DNA of 64,000 nt from Candidatus Poseidoniales archaeon (GTDB taxonomy: Archaea; Thermoplasmatota; Poseidoniia; Poseidoniales; Poseidoniaceae): positions 8,688 to 72,687 of the forward strand of contig JAYQSB010000002.1 in NCBI GenBank assembly GCA_038146705.1, given 5' to 3'. Of the stretch, positions 1,167 to 47,187 are shown in pieces. Numbering within the stretch: position 1 is the stretch's first letter; each line of letters starts with the position of its first letter. A program made the position numbers and the translations under genes. Under the pieces are notes generated by a model, which saw only the letters and a program-made list of their open reading frames with translations, made no database searches and had not been told where the DNA came from.

Positions 1167-2840
1167 ATGAAACCACAACAATCTGGAATCATTCTTCTCT
1201 TTTTGATTTTGATGAGCTTGCAAACGACAGCTGCATCACCACAGTCATATTCTCTTGCCTGGGAGCATCAATTTGAAGAAGGATACATCACAACCAGTCC
1301 GGTTATTTTTGAGGAAACTGTGTTTGTTCGCACCTCAGGATATTGGGTCGGAGATGAACGACCGAAAGTCACTGCGTTTGATTTCGATGGTAATTTACTG
1401 TGGAATTACACCAATAATGCATCCACTCAGCACGACATGGCACCACTACTTGTTGTCGAAAATGGTGAAGGGATTTGTGGCACTTGGGAAACGATGCTTC
1501 TTGTCCCATGGGCCAATGGTGATTTGACCGCGCATAACGTGTCAACTGGCGAATTGGTTTGGAATCAGTCAACAATGGTTGACCAGTGGGGTCTCACTGG
1601 AAGGGCAATTGTGCATGACGATATCGTCATCGCCCCCACTCGCCATGGTTTTTCTGAATTTTGTTTGGCAGACGGCATGGAACAAATAAATTACCAACTT
1701 GGTCTTGGTTGGAGAAATGGTGTGTCAATACATCTGAATGGGACATGGATTGGTGATGAAAACGGGACGGTGTGGTCTATTCAAAATGGAACAGTTGAAC
1801 AGTTCGATGCGGGTGAAGGGTTTATCCGTCATTCTCCAGTGGTGACGAATGATGGCCTTGTCATTCATTTGCAAACTTCAAATGGAAGCGAAATCCTCTT
1901 TTTCAACAGTACATCAAAATCGTTTACCTTGCTCAACACCAGTGGTCCTTCGCCGGGTGTTCCGTTCAGTACTGGCTCATTTGTGGTGACAACCGACAGC
2001 ACGCATGTTCGAATTTTTGATTGCTCAACAGTTTGTTTTCAAGTCGACTCTATCAGATCACATTCAAATGGTGAGATAGGAATTGATGGAAACAACAGAA
2101 TTTGGGTTCCTCAAAATGTGATGAATGGTGGCACACTCATTCTTTCCCTCAATCAGACAGGGGTAATCGTATCATCATCATCATTCAATACGACCTTGGA
2201 TGGATATTCTACAGCATCTCCGGCATTTTCCACTTCATCTACCTCAATCATGGTTTTTGGAAATGATTTTGGAGCACTACGTCTTTACTCACAGAAAACC
2301 GATGTATTCAACGCAGAGAAGAATTACAATCTAACAGAATTCCTTCTTGGAATTACCTTCTTCTTATTCGTGGCAACATGTGCTAAATTTGTCATCAAGG
2401 GTTCAAAAATATGGGCACTTCGTTTACTTCTAACTTCCTTGCTCATCAGCCTTCTTCTTGTGACCCCTCAATTGATGACACTTCTTCAGGAATCGAAACC
2501 AGAGGCTTTACTGCAAAAAGAAGAGGAGTTATGGTCTCCAGATTGGCCACCAGAATGGAATAATACTCAAGTCGTCATTATCGATTTACCAAACGGCCAA
2601 ATCATCGACGGAGGGTTCACAGGCCACGAAACAGTATATGCACTCACAGTTGCTATGGCAGAGAAAAACAACATTTCTATCGTCGTTCAAGAATTTTATT
2701 TTGGCGTCTTCATCGAAAGTTTTTCCGGGGTGACTGGAAATGGTTGGGAGTTTATCGTCGATGGGGAATTGGGCGATGTATCTGCTGACCAATCTGAAAT
2801 GCCTGTATCCGGAATTTTGAGATGGACCCTAGCATCTTGA
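1167..2840 (+). CDS. Secreted N-glycosylated beta-propeller protein with two TM helices and a C-terminal DUF4430 (transcobalamin/BtuG-like) domain.
   Basis: N-terminal signal peptide MKPQQSGIILLFLILMSLQTTAASP. Many NxS/T sequons and repeated W-containing blades (LLWNY, LVWNQ, TVWSIQNG). Two hydrophobic helices. The tail ...GFTGHETVYALTVAMA...FSGVTGNGWEFIVDGELGDVSADQ...ILRWTL matches the DUF4430 consensus (G.W.y.VNGe...A...ikW.y). Confidence 0.55.
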   Translation: MKPQQSGIILLFLILMSLQTTAASPQSYSLAWEHQFEEGYITTSPVIFEETVFVRTSGYWVGDERPKVTAFDFDGNLLWNYTNNASTQHDMAPLLVVENGEGICGTWETMLLVPWANGDLTAHNVSTGELVWNQSTMVDQWGLTGRAIVHDDIVIAPTRHGFSEFCLADGMEQINYQLGLGWRNGVSIHLNGTWIGDENGTVWSIQNGTVEQFDAGEGFIRHSPVVTNDGLVIHLQTSNGSEILFFNSTSKSFTLLNTSGPSPGVPFSTGSFVVTTDSTHVRIFDCSTVCFQVDSIRSHSNGEIGIDGNNRIWVPQNVMNGGTLILSLNQTGVIVSSSSFNTTLDGYSTASPAFSTSSTSIMVFGNDFGALRLYSQKTDVFNAEKNYNLTEFLLGITFFLFVATCAKFVIKGSKIWALRLLLTSLLISLLLVTPQLMTLLQESKPEALLQKEEELWSPDWPPEWNNTQVVIIDLPNGQIIDGGFTGHETVYALTVAMAEKNNISIVVQEFYFGVFIESFSGVTGNGWEFIVDGELGDVSADQSEMPVSGILRWTLAS

Positions 2841-2877
2841 TGGTAAGGGCTAAGTCCGACTGTCAACTCGGACAACC

Positions 2878-3534
2878 ATGTTCTCTGCTATTGGCACACA
2901 CGGGCCAATATTGTCACCGATTGCAGATACTCTTCTCGACATCTTTTTTGTTGGTCTCGCAATCATGCTTTTTACGAACTCAAAACCATCGAAGATGCAA
3001 TCTTTCTTCTTCCTTTCATTTGTTTGCATCATTGTTGCTGGGCGAGTCATCCTCCAACCATTGCCTAACGTGCAACCTGTAACTCTAGCAGTCTTCCTCA
3101 TGGGGGCACACCAAGGTGCACGTCGAGGTATGAGTTTTGCAATTCTCGTGACCCTTCTGTCAAATCTTTTCATTGGGGATGGATGGTGGACGTTGTTTCA
3201 AGCGATTGGATGGTCTGCAGTTGCAGCACTCGGTGCTTGTGCTACTGCTACTTCGAGTGCAAAAATAGAATTGAACGTGCTCTTGCCTCTGCTTGTTGTT
3301 TCCTCTGTACTTTTTGACATCATAACAACGCTTTCTCTTATTGATTCATCAACAACCATGACTTCATTCATGTCAATTCTTTATTCAGGATTGCTCTACG
3401 ACATGTTCCATATCCTTGGTAATCTATGTTTTGCAGTTTGGTTGGGAGAGTCAATTCAGGACTTTTTGATGCCGATTGAGAACATACACGAAGAATCTGT
3501 ACTGGCTGAGGACTTGCATGTTATCGGTGGATGA
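2878..3534 (+). CDS. Polytopic membrane protein, possibly an ECF-type S-component (vitamin-capture subunit).
   Basis: 218 aa with about 6 hydrophobic helices and Gly/Ala-rich TM segments. It lies immediately downstream of the DUF4430 protein, the usual genomic partner of DUF4430. No soluble domain. Confidence 0.35.
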   Translation: MFSAIGTHGPILSPIADTLLDIFFVGLAIMLFTNSKPSKMQSFFFLSFVCIIVAGRVILQPLPNVQPVTLAVFLMGAHQGARRGMSFAILVTLLSNLFIGDGWWTLFQAIGWSAVAALGACATATSSAKIELNVLLPLLVVSSVLFDIITTLSLIDSSTTMTSFMSILYSGLLYDMFHILGNLCFAVWLGESIQDFLMPIENIHEESVLAEDLHVIGG

Positions 3535-3544
3535 TCAATTTAGC

Positions 3545-3895
3545 ATGGCACTTCTTGTGCGAAATGATCTCGAAATGTCGCCAGGGAAAGTTGCTGTACA
3601 ATGTGCTCATGCCGCAGTAGATTGTTCCTTGCAAGCAAGGAAAGTTATACCACAATTATTCGAGATGTGGCGAAACACCGGCTCGAGAAAAATATGTCTC
3701 GTCGCTTTGGATGAGGAGGACATCCTGTACTGGAAAGAAAAATGTGTTGAAGTTGGCCTCGTTCATTCAATTGTCCGAGATGCAGGCCGAACCGAGGTCC
3801 CTGCACAAACAATTACGGTGTTAGGGGTTGGACCTGCCCACAAAACTTCTCTCGATGACATATTTTCTAATCTAGATTTGTATGGGGTAGAGTGA
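3545..3895 (+). CDS. pth2: Peptidyl-tRNA hydrolase, archaeal/eukaryotic type (Pth2), copy 1.
   Basis: GKVAVQCAHAA motif and a C-terminal ...TITVLGVGPA... segment. About 116 aa from the internal ATG at 3545. The upstream part of the listed ORF overlaps the preceding gene. Confidence 0.8.
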   Translation: MALLVRNDLEMSPGKVAVQCAHAAVDCSLQARKVIPQLFEMWRNTGSRKICLVALDEEDILYWKEKCVEVGLVHSIVRDAGRTEVPAQTITVLGVGPAHKTSLDDIFSNLDLYGVE

Positions 3896-4311
3896 TGGGT
3901 TTTCGTTCATTTCTTCATCGAATTACTGCCCCAAAAATGATACAACCGGTTGAGAATCGTCCACTCAAACTCGTTTTGGTCATCAACCATAGCCTCGGAA
4001 TGAAAAAGGGAAAAATTGCTGCTCAAGTGGGCCACGCTAGTGTACAAACCCTTCTCTCTGCAGGCTCTGTTATCCCACATATAGTCGATGCTTGGCTGGC
4101 TCAAGGTCAAAAGAAAGTATGCGTTAAAGCAGCAAATGAACAACAGATGAATGAATTGTCTTCCAGAGCAAAACAGGCCAAACTTCATACTTCGAAAACA
4201 ATAGATGCTGGGCACACCCAAATCCCAAAAGGTAGTTACACAGTGCTAGCGATTGGTCCCGGATACGAATCAGAAATTGATGAAATCACTGGACATTTAT
4301 CGTTATTGTAG
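3892..4311 (+). CDS. pth2: Peptidyl-tRNA hydrolase Pth2, copy 2 (tandem paralog).
   Basis: GKIAAQVGHAS motif and YTVLAIGPG. An ATGA overlap with the stop of copy 1 suggests translational coupling. Confidence 0.75.
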   Translation: MMGFRSFLHRITAPKMIQPVENRPLKLVLVINHSLGMKKGKIAAQVGHASVQTLLSAGSVIPHIVDAWLAQGQKKVCVKAANEQQMNELSSRAKQAKLHTSKTIDAGHTQIPKGSYTVLAIGPGYESEIDEITGHLSLL

Positions 4312-4324
4312 CATCAAGGAATTG

Positions 4325-5389
4325 ATGAAGAAGAAGTTCTTGGTTGGCACCATGAGAGAATTCAATAACGACAGAATCGATTTTCGAAGCGATACTGTGA
4401 CGCAACCGACTTCGAAAATGTTGGAAGCCATGCACAATGCAAAAGTCGGTGACGATGTTCTAGGAGATGATCCGACAGTGATTGAACTTCAACAAAAAGT
4501 TGCTCGAATGTTTGGAAAAGAGGCTGGATTGTTTGTTCCCTCTGGAACGATGTCAAATGCCATTGCCCTACGAACACATACCGTTCCTGGTGATGAAATC
4601 ATTTGTGATAAATCGGCACATATTTATCGATATGAGGGCGGAGGATTTGCTGCACTTTGTGGGGCATCAATTTCTTTAGTCGATGGGGAAAAATGTCTGA
4701 TGACACCCGAACAAGTTCGTGCTGCCATTCGAAAATCCGAAGGCTCTCAAAGCCATTATCCAAACGGAAGTTTAGTCTGTGTAGAAAATACGACTAATTT
4801 GGGTGGAGGTGCGTGCTACAGGAAAGAAACTCTTGATGCAATTGCAAATGTAGCCCGAGAGTTTGATTGTGCAACTCACATTGATGGAGCACGAATTTTT
4901 AATGCGAGCATTGCTACAAATACTCCTGTTGACAGTTTATCGGAAATGTACGATTCAGTTTCTGTTTGCTTGTCCAAGGGATTAGGCGCCCCAGTTGGCT
5001 CAATTCTTGTAGGGTCGCCTGAATTCATTGCCACTGCTCATCGTTGGCGAAAGATGTTCGGAGGGGGGTGGAGGCAGGCTGGAATACTTGCAGGAGCATG
5101 CTTGTATGCTCTTGAAAACAACATTGAGCGATTAGAAGAAGACCACCGTAGAGCAAAACAAATCGCAGATTTTTTCCATCAAACTCCTGGTTTTCATGTC
5201 GATGTTTCCACTGTTCAGACAAATATGGTCTATGTTGATACAGAACAACCCGCAAAGAAGTGGGTCGAGCATCTTTCAGCAAAAGGCATCGATGTTTTTG
5301 ACGTAGGGCCACATCGACTTCGATTTGTTGTCCATTTACACGTAGAAGATAGAGATGTGATACGGCTCCAAGAAGTTATAATGTCATGA
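4325..5389 (+). CDS. ltaE: Low-specificity L-threonine aldolase (PLP-dependent).
   Basis: FRSDTVTQPT...GDDVLGDDPTV...FVPSGTMSNAIALRTH...CDKSAHIYRYEGGG is typical of the threonine aldolase family. Start moved to the internal ATG at 4325 to avoid overlap with pth2. Confidence 0.8.
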   Translation: MKKKFLVGTMREFNNDRIDFRSDTVTQPTSKMLEAMHNAKVGDDVLGDDPTVIELQQKVARMFGKEAGLFVPSGTMSNAIALRTHTVPGDEIICDKSAHIYRYEGGGFAALCGASISLVDGEKCLMTPEQVRAAIRKSEGSQSHYPNGSLVCVENTTNLGGGACYRKETLDAIANVAREFDCATHIDGARIFNASIATNTPVDSLSEMYDSVSVCLSKGLGAPVGSILVGSPEFIATAHRWRKMFGGGWRQAGILAGACLYALENNIERLEEDHRRAKQIADFFHQTPGFHVDVSTVQTNMVYVDTEQPAKKWVEHLSAKGIDVFDVGPHRLRFVVHLHVEDRDVIRLQEVIMS

Positions 5390-5419
5390 GTTTATATCCA
5401 CTCGGAGATTTTCACTCGT

Positions 5420-7849
5420 GTGAATCCTTACGACAATCCCTGCGAGATTTGTTCTTCACGGCAAACCGAAGAACATCATGAACATTGTGAACTTTGTTCA
5501 TCATTGTTGAAATCCAATATCAGAAAGGATTGGAACATCAAGATTGAACCGGATACCAGAGATGAAATCGTTCATTTGATGGCTGGTGCGAAACAAACCC
5601 CAACAAAATGGAGGCGACTTTCTCCGATGCTTGATATTCCCGAACTTCAATGGTTTAGATTGGATAGTGGTACAGACCCAATACACAAATTACCTTGTGA
5701 AGATGATGAGTTTAGTACTATCATCAATCTTAAATTTTCAGATGGCCCGTTGTGCAAAAAACAACAAGCAATACTCCGAAAGGGCGTTGAACTCCATGAC
5801 GGAACAGTTATTTCGATTCACGGTGAGGATTGTTTTATTGATCATTTTAAATTGGCGAAGGAGGTTCCGATTGGAATATTTTTCAAAATCATGTGCAATC
5901 CAATTGAACGAAAAGGATGGGATTTGAAACAATTTTTCTTAGCAGCCTCCGCTTTTGCTCCAAGCATTCATGAAGCTCGTGAGGAACGAATGTTTCATCA
6001 TCGATTTCAAGGACGCCGTCGACGTCGCACAGCAGGTGAAGAATCATTTTACGCCATGTTGCGATGGCTTGGAAGCAAGATTACTTGCTCCAGGGAAAAC
6101 GACGGTCTTTCGAGCAGTATCAACGCATGGGCATATGATGTGAATTCATTTTTCCAAAATAGAGAGCGAATGAGTTTCCCTCAAAACTATACAAATGCAA
6201 TTAAAAACATCCCCGATGGCTTAGAACACCTCTTTCCTGAACCTTGGGTTCAAGCATGGAATCAAGAGACAAATATTCATCATGAAGATGAAAATCAAGT
6301 TGCTCCGATTCGATTTTCAAAGGGTAAAGTCAAGGTAAAAGTGAAAAGGGCGGACGGCTCTAGTTTCTGGATTTCGGTTATTGAACATCCATTGCACATC
6401 GCGTTTGTTCTTTCAGCATGCTTTTATCCAGTCGACCATCCAGCGAGAAAATTATTTTCAGCACTCCAATCCATTTGGTTCAAAGATGACCACAAAAAGC
6501 CGATTACAGAAACCCCATTCGGAGTATCAGTCCAATTTCTTCAAGGTTGTCTTGATGTCGTAGGGGAAAATGCGGTTGTCCATCGTAATGCGATTTTGAT
6601 CCGAGGAAAGTTTGGTCATTACTATGAATTGAAATTGGGTTATGGAGCTCACGGTGCACCGTATCTCCTTCGACCTTTAGATTGTCAAGGAACGACTCTT
6701 CAGTACCGTGAATCGCTGTGCATTCATAATGGGCCTACGCAAAGAAGACTCCCTATTGGAGATACGATTGGCTCGGTGGTGATGAGTATTGCAAATGATG
6801 CAATTTCATCTCGCCTCGTTGATAGTCTTCGACACCACATCGTTCGAAATGGACCCCTCCTTCTTACACCAACAAACCAAGATGAATTTTTTCAACAACT
6901 TGACATGCCCGAATTTCATGATTTTGTGCGTCAACACCCCTTTCGCGGTCGGAATGATAGGCAGTTTGACGATCATGGAGAAATGAACAGAAGGCCGCGT
7001 TGGTTTCATCGAATTGATGCATCAAATCCTGAATTGACAAAGCAGTTGTCTTTAGTCCATATTAACGATCCGTTTGGAAGGTGGATGCAGAACAGAATTG
7101 GACGTCAACGACGAATAGGCGGCGATGGCGACGATTATGAAATGAAAAGAAAACAAGGAGTCCCTCGCACAACGATTGAAGAATTCACTCACCGAGAGGC
7201 AGTCCTTGCTTGGAAGAGGTTGGTTGACCAATCACTAAGAATGGACGAACAAGATGATGAAGGCGGAGTGAGAATAAACCGAGACAGACTTCGAGAACAT
7301 ATGGGCAGGTACATACAAAATCCCCCATTCATCCACGATATTTTCAGGAATAGAGAGACAAACAAACGAATACATGGGTGTGGTGACATCCGCGACGGAG
7401 AACGCCGGTGGTGTGAAACATTTGCAAGGGCGTGGGAATGTCTGCATCTTCAACCAATCGAATCAACCATCCAATTGCATGGAGTTGATACCAAATCCTT
7501 GGCTTTTCAACACTTCAGTCTCAAGATAACTATTCGAGACAAGGATGAGGAACGGTTTATTCAAAAGATTGCTGAACTTGTTGGTTACGAACTCCTTCTT
7601 GAAGATGAACAGAATCTCGTGATGATACGCAAGCGCCATCCAAGAGCAGATGCTCGTATTGAAGTCGCACGTATGTTGAATCAGCTCCAACAGAAGCAGG
7701 GAGCGGAGAAAGCACCACCTCGTTGGTGGAATTACATCGATAGAACCCATGCCCCAGAAGAGTTGGAGAAAGGGCGATGGCAACTCCATGAGGATTTACA
7801 AGACGACAAAAAAGGCGGGAAGGATTGGATTCGGTTTGAAGACTTGTAG
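5420..7849 (+). CDS. Large hypothetical protein (809 aa) with an N-terminal Cys/His cluster.
   Basis: GTG start. N-terminus reads CEICSS...HHEHCELCSS (zinc-ribbon-like). There is a basic RRRRR patch and a KGKVKVKVK low-complexity segment. No recognisable catalytic motif. Confidence 0.45.
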   Translation: MNPYDNPCEICSSRQTEEHHEHCELCSSLLKSNIRKDWNIKIEPDTRDEIVHLMAGAKQTPTKWRRLSPMLDIPELQWFRLDSGTDPIHKLPCEDDEFSTIINLKFSDGPLCKKQQAILRKGVELHDGTVISIHGEDCFIDHFKLAKEVPIGIFFKIMCNPIERKGWDLKQFFLAASAFAPSIHEAREERMFHHRFQGRRRRRTAGEESFYAMLRWLGSKITCSRENDGLSSSINAWAYDVNSFFQNRERMSFPQNYTNAIKNIPDGLEHLFPEPWVQAWNQETNIHHEDENQVAPIRFSKGKVKVKVKRADGSSFWISVIEHPLHIAFVLSACFYPVDHPARKLFSALQSIWFKDDHKKPITETPFGVSVQFLQGCLDVVGENAVVHRNAILIRGKFGHYYELKLGYGAHGAPYLLRPLDCQGTTLQYRESLCIHNGPTQRRLPIGDTIGSVVMSIANDAISSRLVDSLRHHIVRNGPLLLTPTNQDEFFQQLDMPEFHDFVRQHPFRGRNDRQFDDHGEMNRRPRWFHRIDASNPELTKQLSLVHINDPFGRWMQNRIGRQRRIGGDGDDYEMKRKQGVPRTTIEEFTHREAVLAWKRLVDQSLRMDEQDDEGGVRINRDRLREHMGRYIQNPPFIHDIFRNRETNKRIHGCGDIRDGERRWCETFARAWECLHLQPIESTIQLHGVDTKSLAFQHFSLKITIRDKDEERFIQKIAELVGYELLLEDEQNLVMIRKRHPRADARIEVARMLNQLQQKQGAEKAPPRWWNYIDRTHAPEELEKGRWQLHEDLQDDKKGGKDWIRFEDL

Positions 7850-7867
7850 ATATTGAATCATTCATGT

Positions 7868-8800
7868 TCAGTATCCATTCTTCCGGAGAACGAAGGCACA
7901 GAGAATAATCACGAGGAGCAAATCATTCAAATTGAGGAATGGCAAAGATTCATCTTCTTCTGATGTCGGCTTGTCATCGCTTTCGCAGCATTCTTCATTT
8001 TGAATCGCTGTGAATTCATACATAAGATGAATCTCAATATCATCATCATCAAATGCAGTAGGCGGTGTGAGGGTTGCTGTCCCGTTAAGATTGCTCCCTA
8101 ACGAATGAATTTCACGAACAATGTGCGGGTAGTACCCGAGCTGGTTTGAACCTTCCTCAAATGTAGCACCAGATTCTACAAACCATACTTGAACATCTAT
8201 GGTATAATTTTCCAAAACGAGTGCACTAAAATTGACGTTCCAAGCGACAACACCGACTTCACCTGATGGAGTCCAGGCAAAATCGGATGTACCTTCATTC
8301 AAACGTCGTGTTGAATTGGTGAGATGATCATAATCATCTTTTAACGAATCTCCGTCAGCAACACTTCCAACTTTCTTGAGATGCCCATTGAAAACGACAG
8401 TGGGCGGAATTCTCAGGCCGTATATTTCTTGCCATCGTTCATCGAGAACAACTGAGCCGAATGGGTCTTCAGTCTCTCCAATTGCTCTGTGAAAATGATA
8501 TTGTTGAAGGAAGGGAGCTGGGATTTCATCGAGTGCATGTTCCACATCGACACAATTCGTGCACCATGTCGCAGTGTAATCTTCGACCAAAGATGGTAAA
8601 TCATTGAAATGGTCTGTTTGTGTTGAGATATTCGTTGCATTTGTCCACTGCCCACCGAGGATGAAGCCATGGTCCAAGTCTTCTACAGGTGCTGCTTGAG
8701 TCGATGACATTGAACAGAGAAATGCAAATGTCACAACGACAACAATGAGCCTGCCCATGAGATTTGGACTTGCACCATGTGTTTGATTTTTACCCTTCAA
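7868..8800 (-). CDS. Secreted thioredoxin-fold protein with a WCxxC motif and a C-terminal membrane anchor.
   Basis: Signal peptide (LIVVVVTFAFLCSMSSTQAAP). Redox motif YTATWCTNCVDVE. A C-terminal acidic linker precedes a hydrophobic tail LLLVIILCAFVLRKNGY. Confidence 0.55.
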   Translation of the reverse strand: MKGKNQTHGASPNLMGRLIVVVVTFAFLCSMSSTQAAPVEDLDHGFILGGQWTNATNISTQTDHFNDLPSLVEDYTATWCTNCVDVEHALDEIPAPFLQQYHFHRAIGETEDPFGSVVLDERWQEIYGLRIPPTVVFNGHLKKVGSVADGDSLKDDYDHLTNSTRRLNEGTSDFAWTPSGEVGVVAWNVNFSALVLENYTIDVQVWFVESGATFEEGSNQLGYYPHIVREIHSLGSNLNGTATLTPPTAFDDDDIEIHLMYEFTAIQNEECCESDDKPTSEEDESLPFLNLNDLLLVIILCAFVLRKNGY

Positions 8801-10310: not shown

Positions 10311-13300
10311 GTGGAGTTTTTTTTGATATCATCGGAACCGGTTGAATTGGGACGAGGCGTCCCTAATTGGTTGTTTGATTCAATCGTTTCTGGGGCAATT
10401 TCCAATGTCTTGTTCATTCATCCGACAACAGAACACAGAAATGCTTTGATGACCCGTCTTCGATACGAAGACGTTACAACTCACCCAAATCACCATGTAA
10501 CATATGACGGACTCATTCGACAATTAGCAAGCGATCTACGACTTCATACTCCATTCGAAGACGATGTCGCATTACTCGAAAAAATCCACAATCTGCTTGA
10601 GAAACGAGCGAGTGAGTTTGCATTTCCCGTCCTGCACAATGGCGCTCACCCCTGGACATTTGCAAAGACTCAACGAATTATCAAAACGCTGAGGACGCTT
10701 TTGCAAGCGGAACTACCTTGGAATTGGGAGGCAAATCCGGGTTTTGAGGATGTATTGTCCGAGCTTCAAAAATTCGAGGAAACGCACCAGAAAATGATAC
10801 CATTCCTCACAGAATTTCATGTGAATGCTTCACTGAAAACTTTGGACAAACGACCTTTTCATCTCCAACTTGTTGATGGCGTCATCGTTCTGAATCACCC
10901 ACCAGATTATTCTCCAATACAAACATCAATTCTACAAAGATTATCTTCGTGGCTTCCTTTTCATCAATTGATTGCACAAGGCCAAATTCGCTTAGGTCAC
11001 CGTGGAAGTTCGATTCTAGACGCACATTTTGATTCAATCAATTCTCTTCCACTTGGACTCGATAAAATCGAGCGCGATAAACTCATGCATGATGGGTGGC
11101 AAACATCAAACGGCATTAGCCATTATCCATCCTTTCTTCGAATTCTTCTCGATGACAAAATGCAGACAATAGAATCAGTGTGCCAATTCATTTCAGAATA
11201 TTTACAGGAACATCAAGGCAAGATCATCATCATCGACCCATGCAAAGAAGATCATCACAATGCTTGGCGACATCATCTCACCATGATGGGCCTACCTGTT
11301 GGGCGTTCCGCAATTCCGATTCAACAAACTCCATTTGTTCAGCAACTCGTCGGTTTAGCAAGAATAGGATATGGTGTGCACGCTTGGTCTCTCAACCATC
11401 TTTTGAGGTTTGTTCACACAGTCGGCTTACCATTGAAAACCGATCTTTTTCCCGAACTCAAGCATCCACAAAATGAAGATTGGCGGCCAGTACTTCATCA
11501 CAATGTCCTGCAGAAATGCTCCACTATCCACCATGTTTTAGGCGGGCCAGGGGCGCTGGGACGATGGCGTGGCACATTGTCACAAATGCAACCCATCGAC
11601 TCGAGGCATGAGGTCATCACGAAGCAAGAAATCGAAGAAACCCTTTGGGCTCTTGCTTCAATTTCAAGATTAATGTCTCCTTTATTGTCATCAGAGGACC
11701 AATATGTTGCCCAAATAGAAGTTGAAGGCCCGATGAGTGAAACAGAATTACCTCTACCATCGAGCCCATCCAATGTGTTCGCATGGTTTGAAGAAATTCT
11801 TGAAAAAATAGATTGGGAAGAAATTGTTAGTGACCTCGACCAAGCAAATCATGAAGCCCAAGCATTGGAAAAATTTATCCTTGAAATTCGAAAGTTACAG
11901 TTGAGTATCCATACATCAACATGGTCGAAACTCACTCCGCATTGGTTTTTCGAAAGAATGACGTACATTTCGACTAAAATAAAAACAGATGCCAGCCAAG
12001 TGAATTCCGATTTGATTAAAATCATGACCCCTGAGCAAGCCTTTGGCCTTGAATGTGATTTGCTCATTCTCACGTTTATGGATTTAGAATCATGGTCGAT
12101 GAAACAACCAGTCATTCCTTGGTTGGATGAGTTCACGAAAAAAGAGCTTGGCTTTCTTTCGAACAGTTCAAAAATTCGACAAGGGCGTCATCACCTTCGT
12201 CATTTGTTGAATTGTTCCCCCTTCGCTTGTATTTTTGATGCTTCTTTAGAGGAGGGGGGTGAACCCGCAACACCTTTGGCCGAATGGTACGCTGAACTTA
12301 ATGAAGAGGAATTTACCAATCTCGCATCGCCTTTTGAATGGATGATGGAAAAAGGTAGCGATTCACTCTCATCGTATTGGGGGACGACGTACGATAAGAA
12401 GGACAATCTCCATTGGATTATTCCAAAACCTTTGCGAATTCATCAAGTCAAAGGTGCATATTTGATTGAAAAGCATGGCTCAAGTCAAAGAAACATACGC
12501 CAAAATGTTGGTCTCGAAGTAAAGTACGGGATGCAGCAAACCCAACCAATACATCGTAACAATTCATTTTTGCCAAGTTTGGAACGGGCACTGCACCAGG
12601 ATCGTATTTCGAGGCAACCCTCAAAAAATACCTTGACGAGGGGAGAAACGTTGTCTTGGGAATCCCGCAAGTACCGCACAACAATATCAGATTTGAAAGA
12701 GGGATTGAATCTTCTTCAAGCACATAAAGTGGAAGGTTTAGGAGGAGAATATCCGCATTTAGGGGTAAAAGGTGGGGGCAAAACCATCACACCGTACATC
12801 GACCCGCGACCACTCCCACCTGCCTTTGAATCACAACCAGAAATCGAACACTTTAGTGGTACAATTGAATCATCCTTAGAGCGAGAGCGTTGGTCACCTT
12901 CTCGACTTCAAACTTGGATAGAGTGCCCCCGTAAAGGTTGGGCAAAACAATTTCTCAACGTTGAGGATGCTCCATCAGAACTTGAGGAAGACATCAATGC
13001 AATCATGCGAGGAGATATGGTGCATGAGGTCCTGGCCCACATCCTTAATGGTCATGGTGTTGTTGCATATGATGGGGAGGTGAAAGAACCAACTCCACTC
13101 CATGAAGGACCAATTTCGAACCCGATTGATGGATGGATGCGAGCCCTAGAATTTCTTGCTACAAATGTGACATGGTTAGAATTAGATTTTGCTATCTCCG
13201 TGCATCGATGTCGAAGCCTCATTGGTTCAACTCCGGAAGCATGGCGCCAATATCTGGAAGGAAAAGTGACTCTGCAACCTCAAGGAAGTTTGGGCGATTT

Positions 13301-14030
13301 AATTCAGAAAACGTACGACTTATCTTCCTGTGCACCGATTGCAGTTGAATGGCCAGTCTCTGATGGAGAGTCAAGCCATGTGAAGATACTGGAAAAGTCG
13401 GATTTGGAACTTTGTGTGAATGGATTTGCTGATCGTGTCGATATATTCATCCCATCAGAAGAATTGGAAGACGCACTTATCGATGAAGGATTCATCGATG
13501 AAAAACAGTTTGATGAACCCTTCCCAATGCAATATATCGACCAACAACGTTCTGCTCAGAGATATGTCATCATTCGAGATTTCAAAACGGTGAATGGTCC
13601 TAAATCTGACAACATTGGGAACCGTCATTTCAAAGGATTAGTTCGTGAAGTACAACTTGCACTCTATGCAAGAGCATGGGAAATTACGCATCCAAACGAC
13701 AGGGTTATTGGCGTAGGCATTAGTGAAGTTGGTGAATGGACTGAACATTATGTCGAAATTGACACAACTGCTTTTCCCCACGGCATTCAAATCAATGGAA
13801 TTGGAAAGCAGACGAATATTTTGAGTCGGCTTTATCCTTCGTCAATTGATGCAGAGAATGTATCTTCTCCATTTCGTGTATGGATGAACGAACGCATTGA
13901 GACGGCCATGAGGGTCATTGAGACGGCATCGAATGGATATGTGAATCCGACACCCGGCCGCCATTGTTCATATTGTCCAATCAACACTGTTTGTACATTG
14001 TTTGACCTAGCGGGGGGTGAACTGAATTGA
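10311..14030 (+). CDS. AddB/RecC-like subunit of a helicase-nuclease complex: inactive helicase scaffold plus a C-terminal RecB-family nuclease with an Fe-S cluster.
   Basis: 1239 aa with a GTG start and no Walker A motif. C-terminal nuclease motifs: CPRKGWAKQFL (first Cys), GDMVHEVLAH, FADRVDIF, IIRDFKTV (D-x-K), QLALYARAW (QxxxY) and CSYCPINTVC (Cys3). This matches the AddB/Cas4 iron-staple nuclease architecture. Confidence 0.65.
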   Translation: MEFFLISSEPVELGRGVPNWLFDSIVSGAISNVLFIHPTTEHRNALMTRLRYEDVTTHPNHHVTYDGLIRQLASDLRLHTPFEDDVALLEKIHNLLEKRASEFAFPVLHNGAHPWTFAKTQRIIKTLRTLLQAELPWNWEANPGFEDVLSELQKFEETHQKMIPFLTEFHVNASLKTLDKRPFHLQLVDGVIVLNHPPDYSPIQTSILQRLSSWLPFHQLIAQGQIRLGHRGSSILDAHFDSINSLPLGLDKIERDKLMHDGWQTSNGISHYPSFLRILLDDKMQTIESVCQFISEYLQEHQGKIIIIDPCKEDHHNAWRHHLTMMGLPVGRSAIPIQQTPFVQQLVGLARIGYGVHAWSLNHLLRFVHTVGLPLKTDLFPELKHPQNEDWRPVLHHNVLQKCSTIHHVLGGPGALGRWRGTLSQMQPIDSRHEVITKQEIEETLWALASISRLMSPLLSSEDQYVAQIEVEGPMSETELPLPSSPSNVFAWFEEILEKIDWEEIVSDLDQANHEAQALEKFILEIRKLQLSIHTSTWSKLTPHWFFERMTYISTKIKTDASQVNSDLIKIMTPEQAFGLECDLLILTFMDLESWSMKQPVIPWLDEFTKKELGFLSNSSKIRQGRHHLRHLLNCSPFACIFDASLEEGGEPATPLAEWYAELNEEEFTNLASPFEWMMEKGSDSLSSYWGTTYDKKDNLHWIIPKPLRIHQVKGAYLIEKHGSSQRNIRQNVGLEVKYGMQQTQPIHRNNSFLPSLERALHQDRISRQPSKNTLTRGETLSWESRKYRTTISDLKEGLNLLQAHKVEGLGGEYPHLGVKGGGKTITPYIDPRPLPPAFESQPEIEHFSGTIESSLERERWSPSRLQTWIECPRKGWAKQFLNVEDAPSELEEDINAIMRGDMVHEVLAHILNGHGVVAYDGEVKEPTPLHEGPISNPIDGWMRALEFLATNVTWLELDFAISVHRCRSLIGSTPEAWRQYLEGKVTLQPQGSLGDLIQKTYDLSSCAPIAVEWPVSDGESSHVKILEKSDLELCVNGFADRVDIFIPSEELEDALIDEGFIDEKQFDEPFPMQYIDQQRSAQRYVIIRDFKTVNGPKSDNIGNRHFKGLVREVQLALYARAWEITHPNDRVIGVGISEVGEWTEHYVEIDTTAFPHGIQINGIGKQTNILSRLYPSSIDAENVSSPFRVWMNERIETAMRVIETASNGYVNPTPGRHCSYCPINTVCTLFDLAGGELN

Positions 14031-17000
14031 CCCAATTTAACAACAGCCAACGTCTTGGTTTAGATATCGATAAGCACATTGCACTCGATGCGGGTGCAGG
14101 CACTGGGAAAACAACGGTGATGGCTCAACGATACATTCAACATTTGTTGTCACCAATCCAAAGAGCAACAATAGCGACGCTTCCAGGTCCACGTGAAGCC
14201 TTGCGGTCCGCTGACTCTCTCAAGTCTTCAAAACAATCGAGAACACATCCAAAACACTGGCTAGGTTTGCTTCCGGCAGAGGTTGCTGCAATTACCTTCA
14301 CACGTAAGGCCGCAGCAGAATTAAAGGGACGGATTCGAAATGTTCTTTCAACGCTATCGGATACATCAACAGCGGGTAAAAACGCTGTTTTTGACCCTCG
14401 ACTCCAAAAGAGTGGAGATGTGGAAATGCTCTTATCAGAGCTTGATAATGCACCTATTTCCACAATTGATAGTTTTCTTAGTCAACTTGTTCAACCATAC
14501 CTTGACCTCGTTGCAATCACGCCTCCTATTGAGCAGATTTCCGAGGAATTGTCCCAAATTTTGATTCTCGAAACCTTGAGTAGTATTTGGCGAATGCGTC
14601 ATGTTGATGATGCCTTAGAAGCAGGTTTGCTTGAGAACCCAATTGAATTTCTTGAAGCAAGGGATCGCTTAACCGTGCGATTAGGAGGTCAAGCAAACGC
14701 TGCAATTGTGATTCAAGGATTAATGTCGAAATCGATGTTTGTCGAAGAGGCGTATCGAAATTTGATGCGACGAGCCGAAGAGAAAGGCATTGAATTCCAT
14801 TCACAACAATCTGAATCAGTTCAGTTGCTGTTCGATATCATGCTGGATACGTTTAATGAAAACAAACTCGATGAGTTTACTGAAGTTCTTCATCAAATCT
14901 TAGAGAATTGGGTTGACAATTTCCGAGCCTACCCCTCCCAGTGTATTCCTTCAGGGCCAACATTTTCACAATCTCGAATGCATCATCTCATTCATCTCGT
15001 GGAAAACCCCTCTCATCAAAATCCATTGGATAAATTACGCTGGATTTGGCGAGTGTGCCTATCCATTTCCAGTTTCTCAAGTTTATCGAGTGGAAAACCG
15101 TCATTTTTCCCTCGAGGCAATTTACCTCATGATGAATGGGTCGCTGGATTATTCAAGAAAGGGGAATCAACCTTTTCAGACAAGGAACTAAAGAATCAAA
15201 CCTATAGCAAAGGTGTTGAATATTCCGATGCAATCAAAGAGCATTTGAACCACCAAGAACACTCAATTTTTCTATTACTTGCCCGGTGTATTTTCACAAT
15301 TCAACCAGGTGATGGATATTCATTCATGCCTTCGAACGCAAAATCGTATCTATACGGTTTAGAAAAAGACATCCCAACAGGCCATGAACATCTGAATCAT
15401 TATGTTTCAGAGCAACTACAAATGGATGTTATGCAAGATTTATTTTTCATTCACAAAGGTGCACATCAAATCCATTCGCACAGAAAATCAATAGACGGAT
15501 TCAATGATTTCGACGATATCCTCAGGTTTGCTTCTGATTTGCTGCTCACCCGATGCCCAGATATCTGTCGTCAAATGTACCCTAATGAAGCGGTTGAAGC
15601 ATTGGATTCGATGACATCGGAACCTTGGAAAGATGCACACATCGCAAGGGCACTCACCATTTTGCATGATAATGAACGCTGTCGAAGCGATTTACTTCAC
15701 AGATTTCAGATTTTGCAGAATCTTCGTCGGCAGTTTAGAGCGTTTATCATCGATGAGTATCAAGACACGAACCCTAGTCATGCCCGTCTTCTTTCCAGAC
15801 TATGGGGACGAAGATTGAAACTTTCCGACGAATCAGAAACAGACGATTGGTATTGGGACCCAACAATTTGCATTGTCGGGGACATGAAACAGAGTATCTA
15901 TCGTTTTCGACAAGCAGAAGTCTCTGTGATGAGAGATATGGTTGAACAAATTCGAAGTGCGAATCGTCAAGAATATTCCAATCCTAGTCTCCAAGATTTG
16001 CGAAAAGAAGACCATGGAAGAGATCCAAGACCAGTTGGTGACGGGGCATCTGGAATTGCATTTACCAATAAACACGATGATAAGCAAAAAAGTGCACCAC
16101 ATACATACATACATTTTGCTGCAGGTGATGACGAGGAAGGGAAATTCATCACAGACCTAGACCGAATTCAACGTCGTCGGGAAGGTCATATCGATATGAC
16201 AACAAATTATCGAACAAATTCACATCTCCTTGAATTCATGAACGATGTTTTTGATGATGTGTTTTCATCACGTCACGAAACGATTGTGGGTAATTGGTAC
16301 GCTGAACCTCAGCGATTACGTCCAGGTAAGAATCAATCAGGTGGACATTTAGAATGGTTGGTGCCTATTCAAACACATCTTGAGCAAGCGAGTGTTGACA
16401 TGAAAAAGGCATTTGACCCATTCCTCGATGCACGCTCTTCAGTCAAACAACTTGAGAATGAACTCATTGCCCAAAGAATTGAAGCTCTACTTTCAGGGCA
16501 ACAAACTCGAGTTTGGGATACTGAAAATCTTGAATGGATAGACATTGTTGATGGTTCAATTTATCAACCCAGTGATGTCATGGTTCTCTTCCATGCCCGC
16601 ACACATGTGGCAGATTTAATTCAAAGGTTAGGCCATAGGGGAATTCCAGCAGTATCGGATAAACAAGGGGCTTTGCTGCACCAGCCAGTAATACAACCTT
16701 TGATATCAATGCTTGAACTTGTCTCGAATCCTGAATCGAAAAGAGCATTGTTTGGAGTCTTACGCTCACCTTTGGTTGGATTGACGGACGACGAAATCCA
16801 TGAAATTTTTAATTCAAAACTCGAGAATGATTTATTTTCATGTTTTGATTCTGAAATCTTTTCCGGTCCAATCAGGAAGATGTTTGTCGATGTGAATTCC
16901 TTACGAATTAAAGGGCGAATCGAGGATGCATTTGCCTACCTTATCGATTATTCAGACCTACTCGTAGTGCATTCAACAGAATCAGAACGAAATCATGTTG

Positions 17001-46491: not shown

Positions 46492-47187
46492 ATGGTAAGG
46501 ATAGACCGAGTACATACCGGTTCTGGCGATTCAGGTGAAACATCGCTCGTTGATGGTTCAAGAATTGATAAATCGAACCCAAGAATTCACATCGTGGGTA
46601 CACTCGACGAGGTTAATTCAATAGTCGGAGCAGTTTCCATGGAAACAAACCGTTTAATCAGCCATCACGATGGTGGCGATAGCAGTTCAATTCAAAGAGT
46701 GAAAAGCGTCGTTTCATTAGCCCTTCAAAGGATCCAAAATGAATTGTTTGATTTGGGTGCCGAGCTAGGTTGCGAGGTTCAATCCGTTCCCGAATATGTT
46801 ACGTTGCTCGATGCAAAACACTCAGACCTTTTGCTTGAAGAAATAGAAGCGTTAACAAAAGACACGCCCCCTTTGTCAAGTTTTATTTTACCAGGGGGCT
46901 GTCCTCCAGTAACATTTCTTCATGTGGCTCGAACGGTAACACGTCGATTGGAGCGCGTAATTGTTGAACTTGAGCGAAGTCAAGAAGGTTCAATTCGTCC
47001 TATCGTTCTTCAATACATCAATCGCTTATCAGATTGGTTTTTTGTTTTGGGGCGATGGATAAGTCATACATTGGGTGAACATGAACCACTTTGGCAACCA
47101 TTGAGTGGCCGACAATCAGAAAAGGGCATTGTGGAAACCATTTCGCAAATGAAAGCAAATGATGCGGATTTCGATACCCTAGATTGA
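46492..47187 (+). CDS. pduO: PduO-type ATP:cob(I)alamin adenosyltransferase (MMAB family).
   Basis: The N-terminus RIDRVHTGSGDSGETSLVDGSRIDKSNPRIHIVGTLDEVNSIVG matches the conserved PduO start (TGDKGETSL...VGTLDELNS). Confidence 0.8.
   Translation: MVRIDRVHTGSGDSGETSLVDGSRIDKSNPRIHIVGTLDEVNSIVGAVSMETNRLISHHDGGDSSSIQRVKSVVSLALQRIQNELFDLGAELGCEVQSVPEYVTLLDAKHSDLLLEEIEALTKDTPPLSSFILPGGCPPVTFLHVARTVTRRLERVIVELERSQEGSIRPIVLQYINRLSDWFFVLGRWISHTLGEHEPLWQPLSGRQSEKGIVETISQMKANDADFDTLD

What the first reader, a model, noticed from the sequence alone, without database searches (positions are those of the whole stretch)
1167..3534. Beta-propeller surface glycoprotein fused to a DUF4430 (transcobalamin/BtuG-like) domain, followed by a candidate ECF S-component: a possible corrinoid-scavenging module
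The 557-aa protein has a signal peptide, a W-rich propeller-like ectodomain with many N-glycosylation sequons and two TM helices. Its C-terminal 90 aa fit the DUF4430 consensus well (GNGWEFIVDGELGDVSADQ...ILRWTL). By established knowledge, DUF4430 resembles the B12-binding domains of transcobalamin and intrinsic factor, usually sits beside ECF-type vitamin S-components, and bacterial surface B12-capture proteins (BtuG) are beta-propellers. The next gene is a 6-TM membrane protein of S-component size. The window also encodes a PduO-type cobalamin adenosyltransferase at 46492-47187, consistent with corrinoid salvage. A fusion of propeller and DUF4430 in an archaeon would be an undescribed architecture for vitamin capture.
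Basis: partly seen in the sequence, partly recalled or inferred. Interest (0 to 1): 0.55.

Follow-up and report, generated by a model that had tools for sequence, protein, structure and literature searches.

The report
Archaeal vitamin B12 capture-and-uptake gene pair
Two adjacent genes in this marine archaeon (Marine Group II) most likely form a vitamin B12 uptake module: a membrane transporter subunit related to a proven bacterial B12 importer, preceded by a surface protein that fuses a transcobalamin-type domain to a large propeller, an arrangement I found described nowhere.

Summary
ORF B (2878-3534) is a homolog of CbrT, the cobalamin-binding S-component of the Lactobacillus ECF-CbrT transporter. 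CbrT's chain in 6FNP is its only PDB hit (E=7e-11 alone, 8e-20 as a family profile; 34% identity), and its model has the ECF S-component fold. The C-terminal ~90 aa of ORF A (1167-2840) are a true DUF4430 domain. The direct Pfam hit is sub-threshold (E=0.04), but 73 of 78 homologs hit PF14478. A profile built only from unrelated small DUF4430 proteins finds ORF A alone in the window (E=3e-14), and hhalign gives 99.1%. A DUF4430 gene followed by a DUF6580/CbrT-like gene recurs in five longer non-archaeal contigs with different neighbours, once beside PduO and ribonucleotide reductase genes. That matches the gene content of the Lactobacillus nrdJ-cbrS-cbrT-pduO cluster. New here is the fusion: signal peptide, eight-bladed BamB/PQQ-type propeller (not BtuG-like), TM hairpin, then DUF4430, with both domains outside. 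The pair is present in 78 of 80 Poseidoniales species loci. Unresolved: no ECF ATPase/T module was found, cobalamin binding is untested, and the propeller's role is inferred. This is a new variant of a known kind.

The parts
1167..2840 (+). ORF A, 557 aa: signal peptide, eight-bladed propeller, TM hairpin, Trp-motif linker, DUF4430 (propeller-fused CbrS-like surface protein)
   Evidence: ORF. 161 full-length homologs, all of which that carry a source name are from Poseidoniales/Thermoplasmatota-type MAGs. AF2 model pLDDT 86.
1167..1235 (+). Signal-peptide-like N-terminus (residues 1-23; hydrophobic core 5-20, then TAAS)
   Evidence: Helix 5-20 in the model. A Kyte-Doolittle peak and similar N-termini across the family. 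Cleavage was not tested.
1248..2294 (+). Eight-bladed BamB/PQQ-type beta-propeller (residues 28-376), extracellular, with four invariant Cys
   Evidence: PF13360 33.2 bits, above the 27.6 cutoff. Profile hits to BamB and Cake8-10 in PDB. Foldseek TMt 0.80 to Cake8, 0.79 to Tako8 and about 0.7 to BamB. Cys104/166/286/290 are invariant in 78 of 78 sequences.
2331..2492 (+). Transmembrane hairpin (helices 389-410 and 414-442) with a short basic cytoplasmic loop
   Evidence: Model helices. Across the family the loop averages 2.6 K+R against 0.6 D+E, while both flanks are acidic (0.7 against 4.2 and 0.7 against 6.6).
2529..2567 (+). Clade-specific juxtamembrane linker motif W-x3-W-P-x2-W-x2-T-Q (W456, W460, W464 invariant)
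   Evidence: Invariant columns in A1 and A3. Most small DUF4430 proteins align only from profile position ~16 onward, so they mostly lack this motif.
2568..2831 (+). DUF4430 (PF14478) domain, residues 468-555, beta-beta-alpha-beta-beta-beta-beta, with the G-W-E-[YF]-x-[VI]-[DN]-G motif
   Evidence: Direct Pfam hit E=0.04. 73 of 78 homologs hit PF14478. The exhaustive profile search reaches genuine PF14478 proteins. Reciprocal HMM E=3.4e-14 and hhalign 99.1%.
2878..3534 (+). ORF B, 218 aa: CbrT-like (DUF6580 / ECF_trnsprt) substrate-binding membrane component
   Evidence: Its only PDB hit is 6fnp_A (CbrT): E=7e-11 alone and 8.4e-20 as a profile. BLASTP gives 34% identity over 125 aa. 46 of 66 family members hit PF20221 and 13 of 66 hit PF12822. 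The fold matches FolT and PanT.
2878..2982 (+). Clade-specific N-terminal extension of ORF B: invariant G6-x-H8-G9-P10 motif plus an extra TM-like helix (14-34)
   Evidence: CbrT residue 5 aligns to profile position 36. The extension is absent from CbrT and from out-of-clade DUF6580 proteins. Invariant columns are listed. Helix 14-34 is in the model.
2983..3468 (+). Six-helix S-component core with blocks shared with CbrT (R-x6-PNVQPVT, SN-x-F-x-G-x-G-x-WT, [YF]D-x2-H-x2-GN)
   Evidence: Alignments.
46492..47187 (+). PduO-type cob(I)alamin adenosyltransferase. This is context only: it is 43 kb away and not part of the locus.
   Evidence: PF01923, E=7e-47.

Best explanation
ORF A and ORF B form a corrinoid (vitamin B12 or cobamide) acquisition module of Marine Group II archaea. 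It is the archaeal counterpart of the bacterial cbrS-cbrT gene pair.

ORF B is the membrane substrate-binding and translocating subunit. It is a homolog of CbrT, which binds cobalamin and cobinamide with nanomolar affinity.

ORF A is a surface accessory. Its last ~135 residues (TM helix, linker, DUF4430) correspond to an entire small membrane-anchored DUF4430 protein of the kind encoded directly upstream of DUF6580/CbrT-like genes in other lineages. DUF4430 is also the C-terminal domain type of transcobalamin-family proteins. In Poseidoniales this unit has been fused, through a second TM helix, to a secreted eight-bladed propeller. Both globular domains therefore sit on the outer face of the membrane.

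Inferred mechanism: the DUF4430 domain, possibly clamping the ligand against the propeller face the way the two domains of transcobalamin sandwich B12, captures scarce corrinoid from seawater and hands it to ORF B in the same membrane. Imported cobalamin is then adenosylated by PduO.

Shown: the homologies, the folds, the topology signal and the conserved gene pairing. Inferred: ligand identity, the hand-off, the propeller's role and the energy source.
For: ORF B and CbrT:
- The family profile hits only CbrT's chain in the PDB (6fnp_A, E=8.4e-20). ORF B alone gives E=7e-11.
- Identity is 34% over 125 aa. The CbrT authors give 25-60% as the range among presumed isofunctional CbrT homologs, and only 16% between CbrT and FolT2 (PMC5997447).
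- The S-component fold is supported by Foldseek.

DUF4430: (reciprocal HMM 47.6 bits, E=3.4e-14, covering TM2, linker and domain; hhalign 99.1%). Transcobalamin-family proteins carry DUF4430 at their C-terminus (PMC4350170).

Pairing:
- 78 of 80 Poseidoniales species loci have the DUF4430 domain ending 41-84 nt upstream of ORF B on the same strand.
- Out of clade, a small DUF4430 gene is directly followed by a PF20221 gene in L091, L092/L093, L094, L096 and L097. L008 and L095 each show a truncated downstream ORF consistent with the same pattern, and L008's matches the ORF B family HMM.
- In L091 the pair lies beside PF01923 PduO and ribonucleotide reductase genes, one with a TSCPD domain. This matches the gene content of the L. 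delbrueckii nrdJ-cbrS-cbrT-pduO cluster.
- The L. rhamnosus DUF4430 gene neighbours rtpR (PMC9963975).

Topology: basic hairpin loop, acidic flanks and four invariant Cys in the propeller.

PduO is in the window.
Against: - No cobalamin binding or transport has been measured for any DUF4430 or DUF6580 protein of this clade.
- ECF-CbrT transports B12 without CbrS (PMC5997447), so a DUF4430 partner is not essential in bacteria, and its function is unknown even there.
- That CbrS is the DUF4430 protein is my inference from gene neighbourhoods, not a checked fact.
- CbrT alone did not support uptake and needs EcfAA'T. No ABC ATPase or EcfT was found in the 64-kb window or in any fetched locus.
- Within Poseidoniales the whole neighbourhood (MCM-GatE-A-B-Pth2-Pth2-aldolase) is syntenic, so adjacency there is weak evidence of linkage.
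- Two species keep ORF B without an adjacent ORF A. One divergent ORF A homolog (L090) has no CbrT-like neighbour.
- ORF B itself has no Pfam hit, and ORF A's PF14478 score is below the gathering threshold.
- No B12-dependent enzyme is encoded in the window.
Confidence: 0.7

Rival explanations
1. The pair is the same module but ORF B works as a solitary, ECF-independent transporter. In this reading ORF B works like BtuM or solitary BioY, because Poseidoniales lack an EcfAA'T module. The clade-specific additions (the extra N-terminal TM helix and outward-facing G-x-H-G-P motif of ORF B, and the TM hairpin of ORF A) replace the missing partners.
For: No Walker A + LSGGQ ORF occurs in the window or in 97 fetched loci. 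None of the out-of-clade DUF4430-DUF6580 pairs has an adjacent ECF module either. BtuM and some BioY proteins transport without a module (PMC6072759). The N-terminal extension is invariant and clade-specific.
Against: Group II S-components normally use an ECF module encoded elsewhere in the genome, so its absence nearby means little. CbrT, the closest characterised relative, strictly needs the module. The A2 profile does not hit BtuM even at E<=10. The genome-wide search could not be done.
Confidence: 0.25
2. The module imports a different ligand. Candidates are another tetrapyrrole or bulky cofactor, or specifically cobinamide or pseudocobalamin rather than cobalamin. In that case the similarity to CbrT reflects family membership only.
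For: S-component specificity cannot be read from sequence. DUF6580 is annotated only as a 'putative transport protein'. No paper in the library mentions DUF6580. CbrT itself is promiscuous for cobinamide and for beta-ligands.
Against: 34% identity to CbrT is far above the ~16% seen between S-components of different specificity. The only known ligand-binding relatives of DUF4430 are the B12 carriers. The L091 pair sits beside PduO and ribonucleotide reductase genes.
Confidence: 0.15
3. ORF A is a generic archaeal surface or S-layer-associated propeller glycoprotein (adhesion, or a PQQ-type enzyme). Its C-terminal beta-rich module is just a membrane-proximal stalk, and its adjacency to ORF B is inherited synteny without functional coupling.
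For: The whole neighbourhood is syntenic across Poseidoniales. NCBI names these proteins only 'PQQ-binding-like beta-propeller repeat protein'. L055 and L071 lack an adjacent ORF A, and L090 lacks ORF B.
Against: The C-terminal unit is homologous, TM anchor included, to stand-alone DUF4430 proteins that are themselves always paired with DUF6580 genes in unrelated genomes. The propeller is ~350 aa and BamB-like rather than a ~600-aa PQQ dehydrogenase.
Confidence: 0.1

Closest known systems
[quoted passage not shown]
   Same: ORF B is a sequence homolog of CbrT (34% identity; its only PDB hit) with the same S-component fold and shared motif blocks. It is preceded by a gene with a membrane-anchored extracellular domain, as cbrT is preceded by cbrS. 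A PduO gene is present in the genome.
   Different: The organism is an archaeon. ORF B has an extra N-terminal helix and a G-x-H-G-P motif. ORF B's family scores mostly in PF20221 (DUF6580), whereas CbrT scores in PF12822. The upstream partner is fused to a propeller through a TM hairpin. No ECF module, nrdJ or pduO is adjacent. The identity of CbrS as a DUF4430 protein is inferred, not verified.
Small membrane-anchored DUF4430 proteins paired with DUF6580 genes (uncultured, probably bacterial lineages; loci L091, L092, L094, L096, L097)
   Same: The gene order is the same (DUF4430 then DUF6580, overlapping or less than ~70 nt apart). ORF A residues ~420-553 align end to end with these ~140-aa proteins, and ORF B is a distant homolog of their partners.
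   Different: Those proteins have no propeller and only one TM helix. Their DUF6580 partners are only 15-19% identical to ORF B and lack its N-terminal extension.
Transcobalamin / intrinsic factor / haptocorrin, and bacterial SLH-anchored proteins combining a prenyltransferase-like alpha/alpha toroid with DUF4430 repeats (P0275, P0281)
   Same: Both combine a DUF4430 (beta) domain with a second large globular domain on an extracellular protein. In transcobalamin the two domains sandwich B12 (from established knowledge).
   Different: The second domain here is an eight-bladed beta-propeller, not an alpha6/alpha6 toroid. The two domains are separated by a TM hairpin rather than a soluble linker. 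No sequence match to PF01122 was found.
BtuG surface lipoproteins of Bacteroidetes
   Same: Both are cell-surface beta-propellers encoded beside a B12 transporter gene, with the plausible role of high-affinity capture and hand-off.
   Different: BtuG is seven-bladed, restricted to Bacteroidetes, a lipoprotein, and partners the outer-membrane transporter BtuB (PMC6143338). The ORF A propeller is eight-bladed and BamB/PQQ-like, with no sequence or top-50 structural match to BtuG.
BtuM (solitary S-component-like B12 transporter, Thiobacillus denitrificans)
   Same: It is a small S-component-fold membrane protein for B12 in organisms without an ECF module, so it is a possible functional analogy.
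   Different: The ORF B family profile gives no detectable sequence match to BtuM even at E<=10. Whether ORF B has an equivalent of BtuM's catalytic Cys80 was not examined.

Membership tests
DUF4430 (Pfam PF14478) | Score at or above the Pfam gathering threshold (23.8 bits) for this protein | tested here: not met
   14.8 bits, E=0.04, residues 489-545 against profile positions 3-60 of 72.
DUF4430 (Pfam PF14478) | Homology to bona fide family members shown by profile methods | tested here: met
   73 of 78 homologs hit PF14478, best E=3e-6. The A3 profile retrieves proteins scoring 47-266 bits on PF14478. An HMM of 29 out-of-clade DUF4430 proteins hits ORF A at 47.6 bits, E=3.4e-14, and hhalign gives 99.1%.
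DUF4430 (Pfam PF14478) | Corrinoid binding by the domain | not testable with these tools
   This needs binding assays. Only the eukaryotic transcobalamin-family relatives are known B12 binders.
CbrT-type cobalamin S-component (ECF_trnsprt PF12822 / DUF6580 PF20221) | Significant sequence similarity to the experimentally characterised CbrT | tested here: met
   6fnp_A at E=7e-11 (single sequence) and E=8.4e-20 (profile). BLASTP gives 34% identity over 125 aa. The matched chain fragment scores as an ECF S-component in Pfam.
CbrT-type cobalamin S-component (ECF_trnsprt PF12822 / DUF6580 PF20221) | Six-helix ECF S-component fold | tested here: met
   The AF2 model has pLDDT 87. Top Foldseek hits are FolT 5d3m_C (prob 0.99, TMt 0.65), FolT 4huq_S, and PanT 6zg3_C and 4rfs_S. 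Foldseek E-values are weak (0.2-2.5). One additional N-terminal helix is present.
CbrT-type cobalamin S-component (ECF_trnsprt PF12822 / DUF6580 PF20221) | Pfam family hit for this protein itself | tested here: not met
   ORF B has no PF20221 or PF12822 hit at E<=1. 46 of 66 homologs hit PF20221 and 13 of 66 hit PF12822.
CbrT-type cobalamin S-component (ECF_trnsprt PF12822 / DUF6580 PF20221) | An EcfA/A'/T energising module encoded in the genome | not testable with these tools
   None in the window or in the fetched loci. Whole Poseidoniales genomes could not be read.
CbrT-type cobalamin S-component (ECF_trnsprt PF12822 / DUF6580 PF20221) | Genomic linkage to B12-dependent or B12-processing genes | tested here: inconclusive
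   PduO is in the window but 43 kb away. Direct linkage (PduO plus ribonucleotide reductase genes) was seen only for the out-of-clade pair in L091. There is no cobalamin riboswitch, as expected for archaea.
BtuG | Seven-bladed beta-propeller homologous to PDB 3DSM; Bacteroidetes lipoprotein partnered with BtuB | tested here: not met
   The A1 profile finds no BtuG in the PDB at E<=10. The best structural matches are eight-bladed BamB, Cake8 and Tako8. BtuG's properties are from PMC6143338.
Transcobalamin / intrinsic factor family (PF01122) | N-terminal alpha6/alpha6 toroid domain plus C-terminal DUF4430-type beta domain | tested here: not met
   Only the beta-domain equivalent is present. The N-terminal domain is a propeller, and there is no PDB sequence hit for the C-terminal domain.
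BamB / PQQ_2 beta-propeller superfamily (PF13360) | Pfam score above threshold and an eight-bladed fold | tested here: met
   33.2 bits against a 27.6 cutoff. BamB TMt is about 0.7. This is fold and superfamily membership only: an archaeon has no BAM complex, and the NCBIfam BamB equivalog scores are far below cutoff.

The most novel reading that the evidence does not exclude
The propeller-hairpin-DUF4430 protein is a membrane-tethered analogue of transcobalamin. An eight-bladed propeller has replaced the alpha/alpha toroid as the second jaw of a B12 clamp, giving ultra-high-affinity capture at the picomolar B12 levels of seawater. It would deliver the ligand to a CbrT-like protein that, through its clade-specific outward-facing G-x-H-G-P motif and extra helix, works without any ECF ATPase module. 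That would be a new, self-contained archaeal B12 uptake system. It would also imply that the most abundant surface-ocean archaea are obligate B12 scavengers.
Probability: 0.15. Interest if true: 0.8.

Novelty: new variant of a known kind. Interest (0 to 1): 0.55.

Why it matters
[quoted passage not shown] The two main comparative-genomics papers and a metatranscriptome study on them have no text match for vitamin, B12, cobalamin or ECF.

A near-universal CbrT-like transporter gene with a dedicated surface DUF4430 protein makes a concrete, testable prediction. These archaea should take up external corrinoids, which bears on how to grow them and on who consumes B12 in the sea.

For transport biology, the function of CbrS/DUF4430 proteins next to ECF-type B12 S-components is unknown. 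A natural fusion that fixes the domain on the outer membrane face next to a propeller gives a handle on that question. It also hints that ECF-type S-components, usually thought to need no binding protein, can have extracellular helpers.

Tried and rejected
- **PDB search with the C-terminal domain profile (A3):** no hit even at E<=10, so a direct link to transcobalamin structures by sequence failed.
- **Fold comparison of the DUF4430 domain alone:** not possible.
- **BtuG relationship:** considered and rejected.
- **PQQ dehydrogenase reading:** judged unlikely. The matches cover only generic propeller blades, and the domain is BamB-sized.
- **Cobalamin riboswitch:** none found.
- **ECF A/T genes or any ABC ATPase in the window and all loci:** none found.
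- **Genome-collection scan with the ORF B family:** the 80 loci kept were all Poseidoniales-type MAGs, apart from one contig labelled Verrucomicrobiales, so it gave no out-of-clade context.
- **Contexts of the divergent propeller-DUF4430 proteins P0285 and P0295:** a truncated contig and a locus without a CbrT-like neighbour.
- **Taxonomic names for the small-DUF4430 lineage:** none on record. They look bacterial (DivIC, MGDG synthase neighbours), but this is inference.
- **Rodionov 2009 paper that named cbrS/cbrT:** not held in the library.
- **AxxxA motif in S-component helix 1:** by eye it is not conserved in the ORF B family. I did not treat this as evidence, because the motif is not universal.
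Full report
**Observation.** They sit in a tight co-directional array: GatE (ending at 1160), ORF A, ORF B, two tandem Pth2 genes, then a beta-eliminating lyase/threonine-aldolase-like gene. GatE, Pth2 and the source names given to homologs place the window in Poseidoniales, the Marine Group II archaea.

ORF A has the following features:
- a signal-peptide-like N-terminus;
- a propeller at residues ~28-376;
- two TM helices (389-410 and 414-442);
- a ~90-aa beta-rich C-terminal domain (AF2 model pLDDT 86);
- 17 Trp, ten of them invariant in the family;
- 15 N-glycosylation sequons against 5.9 +/- 2.2 expected by shuffling. The family median is only 5.5, so heavy glycosylation potential is a trait of this sub-lineage, not of the family.

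**The C-terminal domain of ORF A is a DUF4430 domain.** Scanned directly, PF14478 scores only 14.8 bits (E=0.04, cutoff 23.8). By Pfam's own rule, this protein is not a called member. Four further tests establish homology.
- 73 of 78 full-length homologs hit PF14478 at E<=0.1, best 3e-6.
- A profile of the C-terminal 103 residues (A3) was searched exhaustively against 1.84 billion representative proteins and found 465 proteins at E<=1e-3. These include ~140-aa proteins and large SLH-anchored proteins that score 47-266 bits on PF14478.
- An HMM built only from 29 such out-of-clade small proteins finds ORF A, and nothing else, among the window's 341 stop-to-stop ORFs (47.6 bits, E=3.4e-14).
- hhalign between the two alignments gives 99.1% probability.

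The reciprocal match spans HMM positions 6-138 against ORF A residues ~420-553. So TM2, the linker and DUF4430 of ORF A together correspond to a whole small membrane-anchored DUF4430 protein. ORF A therefore reads as a fusion of a secreted, C-terminally anchored propeller with an N-terminally anchored DUF4430 protein (inference). The transcobalamin family carries DUF4430 at its C-terminus (PMC4350170). Some bacterial hits combine DUF4430 repeats with a prenyltransferase-like alpha/alpha toroid, which is the transcobalamin two-domain logic.

**The propeller is BamB/PQQ-type, not BtuG-like.** PF13360 is above threshold. The family profile hits BamB, designed Cake propellers and PQQ enzymes in the PDB, and no BtuG at E<=10. 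Foldseek gives its best TM-scores to eight-bladed designs (Cake8 0.80, Tako8 0.79) and to BamB (~0.7). BtuG is seven-bladed and confined to Bacteroidetes (PMC6143338). The BtuG parallel is therefore at most a functional analogy.

**Topology.** Across the 78 sequences the loop between the two TM helices is basic (2.6 K+R against 0.6 D+E). The segments before TM1 and after TM2 are acidic (0.7 against 4.2, and 0.7 against 6.6). Four propeller cysteines are invariant. By the positive-inside rule, both the propeller and DUF4430 face outward. An invariant W-x3-W-P-x2-W motif sits just after TM2. It is specific to this clade.

**ORF B is a CbrT-like S-component.**
- ORF B itself has no Pfam hit. However, 46 of 66 homologs hit PF20221 (DUF6580) and 13 of 66 hit PF12822 (ECF_trnsprt).
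- Against all PDB sequences, the family profile hits one meaningful chain, 6fnp_A (E=8.4e-20). ORF B alone hits the same chain and nothing else (E=7e-11).
- 6FNP is ECF-CbrT, the cobalamin/cobinamide ECF transporter of L. delbrueckii (PMC5997447). I take the 182-aa chain to be the S-component CbrT, because its matched fragment scores as an ECF S-component in Pfam.
- BLASTP gives 34% identity over 125 aa. The CbrT authors report 25-60% among presumed isofunctional homologs, and only 16% between CbrT and FolT2.
- Shared blocks include R-x6-PNVQPVT, SN-x-F-x-G-x-G-x-WT and [YF]D-x2-H-x2-GN.
- The AF2 model (pLDDT 87, pTM 0.84) matches FolT and PanT S-components best (prob 0.99, TMt 0.65 for the top hit). 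Foldseek E-values are weak.
- ORF B's family has an extra ~35 residues at the N-terminus: an invariant G-x-H-G-P motif and a TM-like helix. These are absent from CbrT and from other DUF6580 proteins. Since S-component N-termini are cytoplasmic, this would put the motif outside (inference).

**Is the pairing meaningful?** Within Poseidoniales the DUF4430 domain ends 41-84 nt upstream of the ORF B homolog in 78 of 80 species-representative loci. However, the whole neighbourhood is syntenic, so this alone proves little.

The independent evidence comes from outside the clade. In every longer contig obtained for small DUF4430 genes (L091, L092, L094, L096, L097), the next gene is a PF20221 protein, overlapping or less than ~70 nt away. 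The short contig L093 shows the same pair. L008 and L095 show a truncated downstream ORF consistent with it, and L008's matches the ORF B family HMM. The surrounding genes differ between these contexts.

In L091 the pair lies next to a PduO-type adenosyltransferase and ribonucleotide reductase genes, one with a TSCPD domain. This matches the gene content of the nrdJ-cbrS-cbrT-pduO cluster of L. delbrueckii. In L. rhamnosus the DUF4430 gene neighbours rtpR (PMC9963975), which I know to be the B12-dependent ribonucleotide reductase. I therefore infer that CbrS is the DUF4430 protein, and that ORF A and ORF B are a cbrS-cbrT equivalent. I could not check CbrS directly, because the Rodionov 2009 paper is not held.

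**Counter-examples.** L055 and L071 keep ORF B and Pth2 but have carotenoid genes upstream. A divergent propeller-DUF4430 protein in L090 has no CbrT-like neighbour.

**Context in the window.**
- PduO is confirmed at 46492-47187, but it is 43 kb away.
- There is no cobalamin riboswitch.
- No cob/cbi gene, B12-dependent enzyme, EcfT or ABC ATPase appears among the ORFs scanned.
- CbrT needs its ECF module to transport, whereas BtuM does not (PMC6072759).
- Whether Poseidoniales have a module elsewhere is the main open question.

**Mechanism.** The best-supported reading is as follows.
1. ORF B binds and translocates a corrinoid.
2. ORF A presents a DUF4430 domain, and a propeller, on the outer face of the same membrane to capture the ligand and pass it on.
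3. PduO then adenosylates the imported cobalamin.

The homologies, folds, topology signal and recurrent pairing are shown. The ligand, the hand-off, a clamp role for the propeller and the energy source are inferred.

**Novelty.**
- The DUF4430/S-component pairing and CbrT itself are known.
- The archaeal occurrence, the propeller-hairpin-DUF4430 fusion and the extended ORF B appear undescribed.
- No paper in the library mentions DUF6580, and the eight that mention DUF4430 do so only in passing.
- The MGII genomics and transcriptomics papers have no text match for vitamins, B12 or ECF.
- NCBI names ORF A homologs only 'PQQ-binding-like beta-propeller repeat protein'.

I rate this a new variant of a known kind, with moderate interest (0.55). 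It offers a concrete hypothesis about B12 dependence in an abundant uncultured archaeal group, and a natural construct for working out what DUF4430 does beside ECF-type transporters.

Noticed in passing
window 3476-3895 and 3892-4311 (+): Two tandem peptidyl-tRNA hydrolase Pth2 genes (both PF01981, E of 1e-34 to 1e-38) lie directly after ORF B. The duplication is conserved across Poseidoniales loci (L001-L006). The first copy's longest ORF overlaps the end of ORF B by 59 nt, but its real start is probably further downstream.
   Followed up: partly
L055 and L071, around 1950-6660: In two related Poseidoniales species, ORF B and Pth2 are retained but ORF A and GatE are replaced upstream. In their place are what look like carotenoid genes (phytoene desaturase-like and phytoene synthase-like, judged by eye only) and a 459-aa protein on the opposite strand. 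This is a local rearrangement that separates ORF B from ORF A.
   Followed up: partly
L090 65-991 and L089 3-329: Divergent propeller-DUF4430 genes (P0295, P0285, which have an insertion inside the DUF4430 domain) are preceded by a cupredoxin (PF00127) protein with a PGF-CTERM archaeosortase signal. The N-terminal half of the L090 protein weakly resembles DUF4430 (12 bits, E=0.003 in a small local database). This may hint at a copper-protein link, or it may be chance.
   Followed up: partly
window 31568-39892 (-) and 50591-54094 (+): A 2774-aa ORF and a 1167-aa ORF have no Pfam hit at E<=1e-4. They may be giant surface proteins of the kind common in MGII.
   Followed up: no
window 10311-14030 and 14027-18931 (+): Adjacent 1239-aa and 1634-aa ORFs carry PD-(D/E)XK nuclease and UvrD helicase domains. 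This AddAB/RecBCD-like helicase-nuclease pair seemed an unexpected repair system for an archaeon.
   Followed up: no
window 24879-26864 (+): A 661-aa protein with a C-terminal EF-hand pair (PF13499, E=3e-9), which seemed unexpected in an archaeon. The rest of the protein has no family hit.
   Followed up: no
window 5420-7849 (+) and 7868-8800 (-): An 809-aa Cys-rich-N-terminus protein and a 310-aa secreted, TM-anchored protein have no Pfam family. Proteins of similar length occupy the same positions across Poseidoniales loci (788-795 aa and 293-300 aa in L001-L005).
   Followed up: no
L022 (NZEQ01000040.1): A contig labelled 'Verrucomicrobiales bacterium' carries an ORF B homolog 49% identical over 206 aa. 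It ranks among Poseidoniales loci, so the contig was most likely binned into the wrong genome.
   Followed up: no
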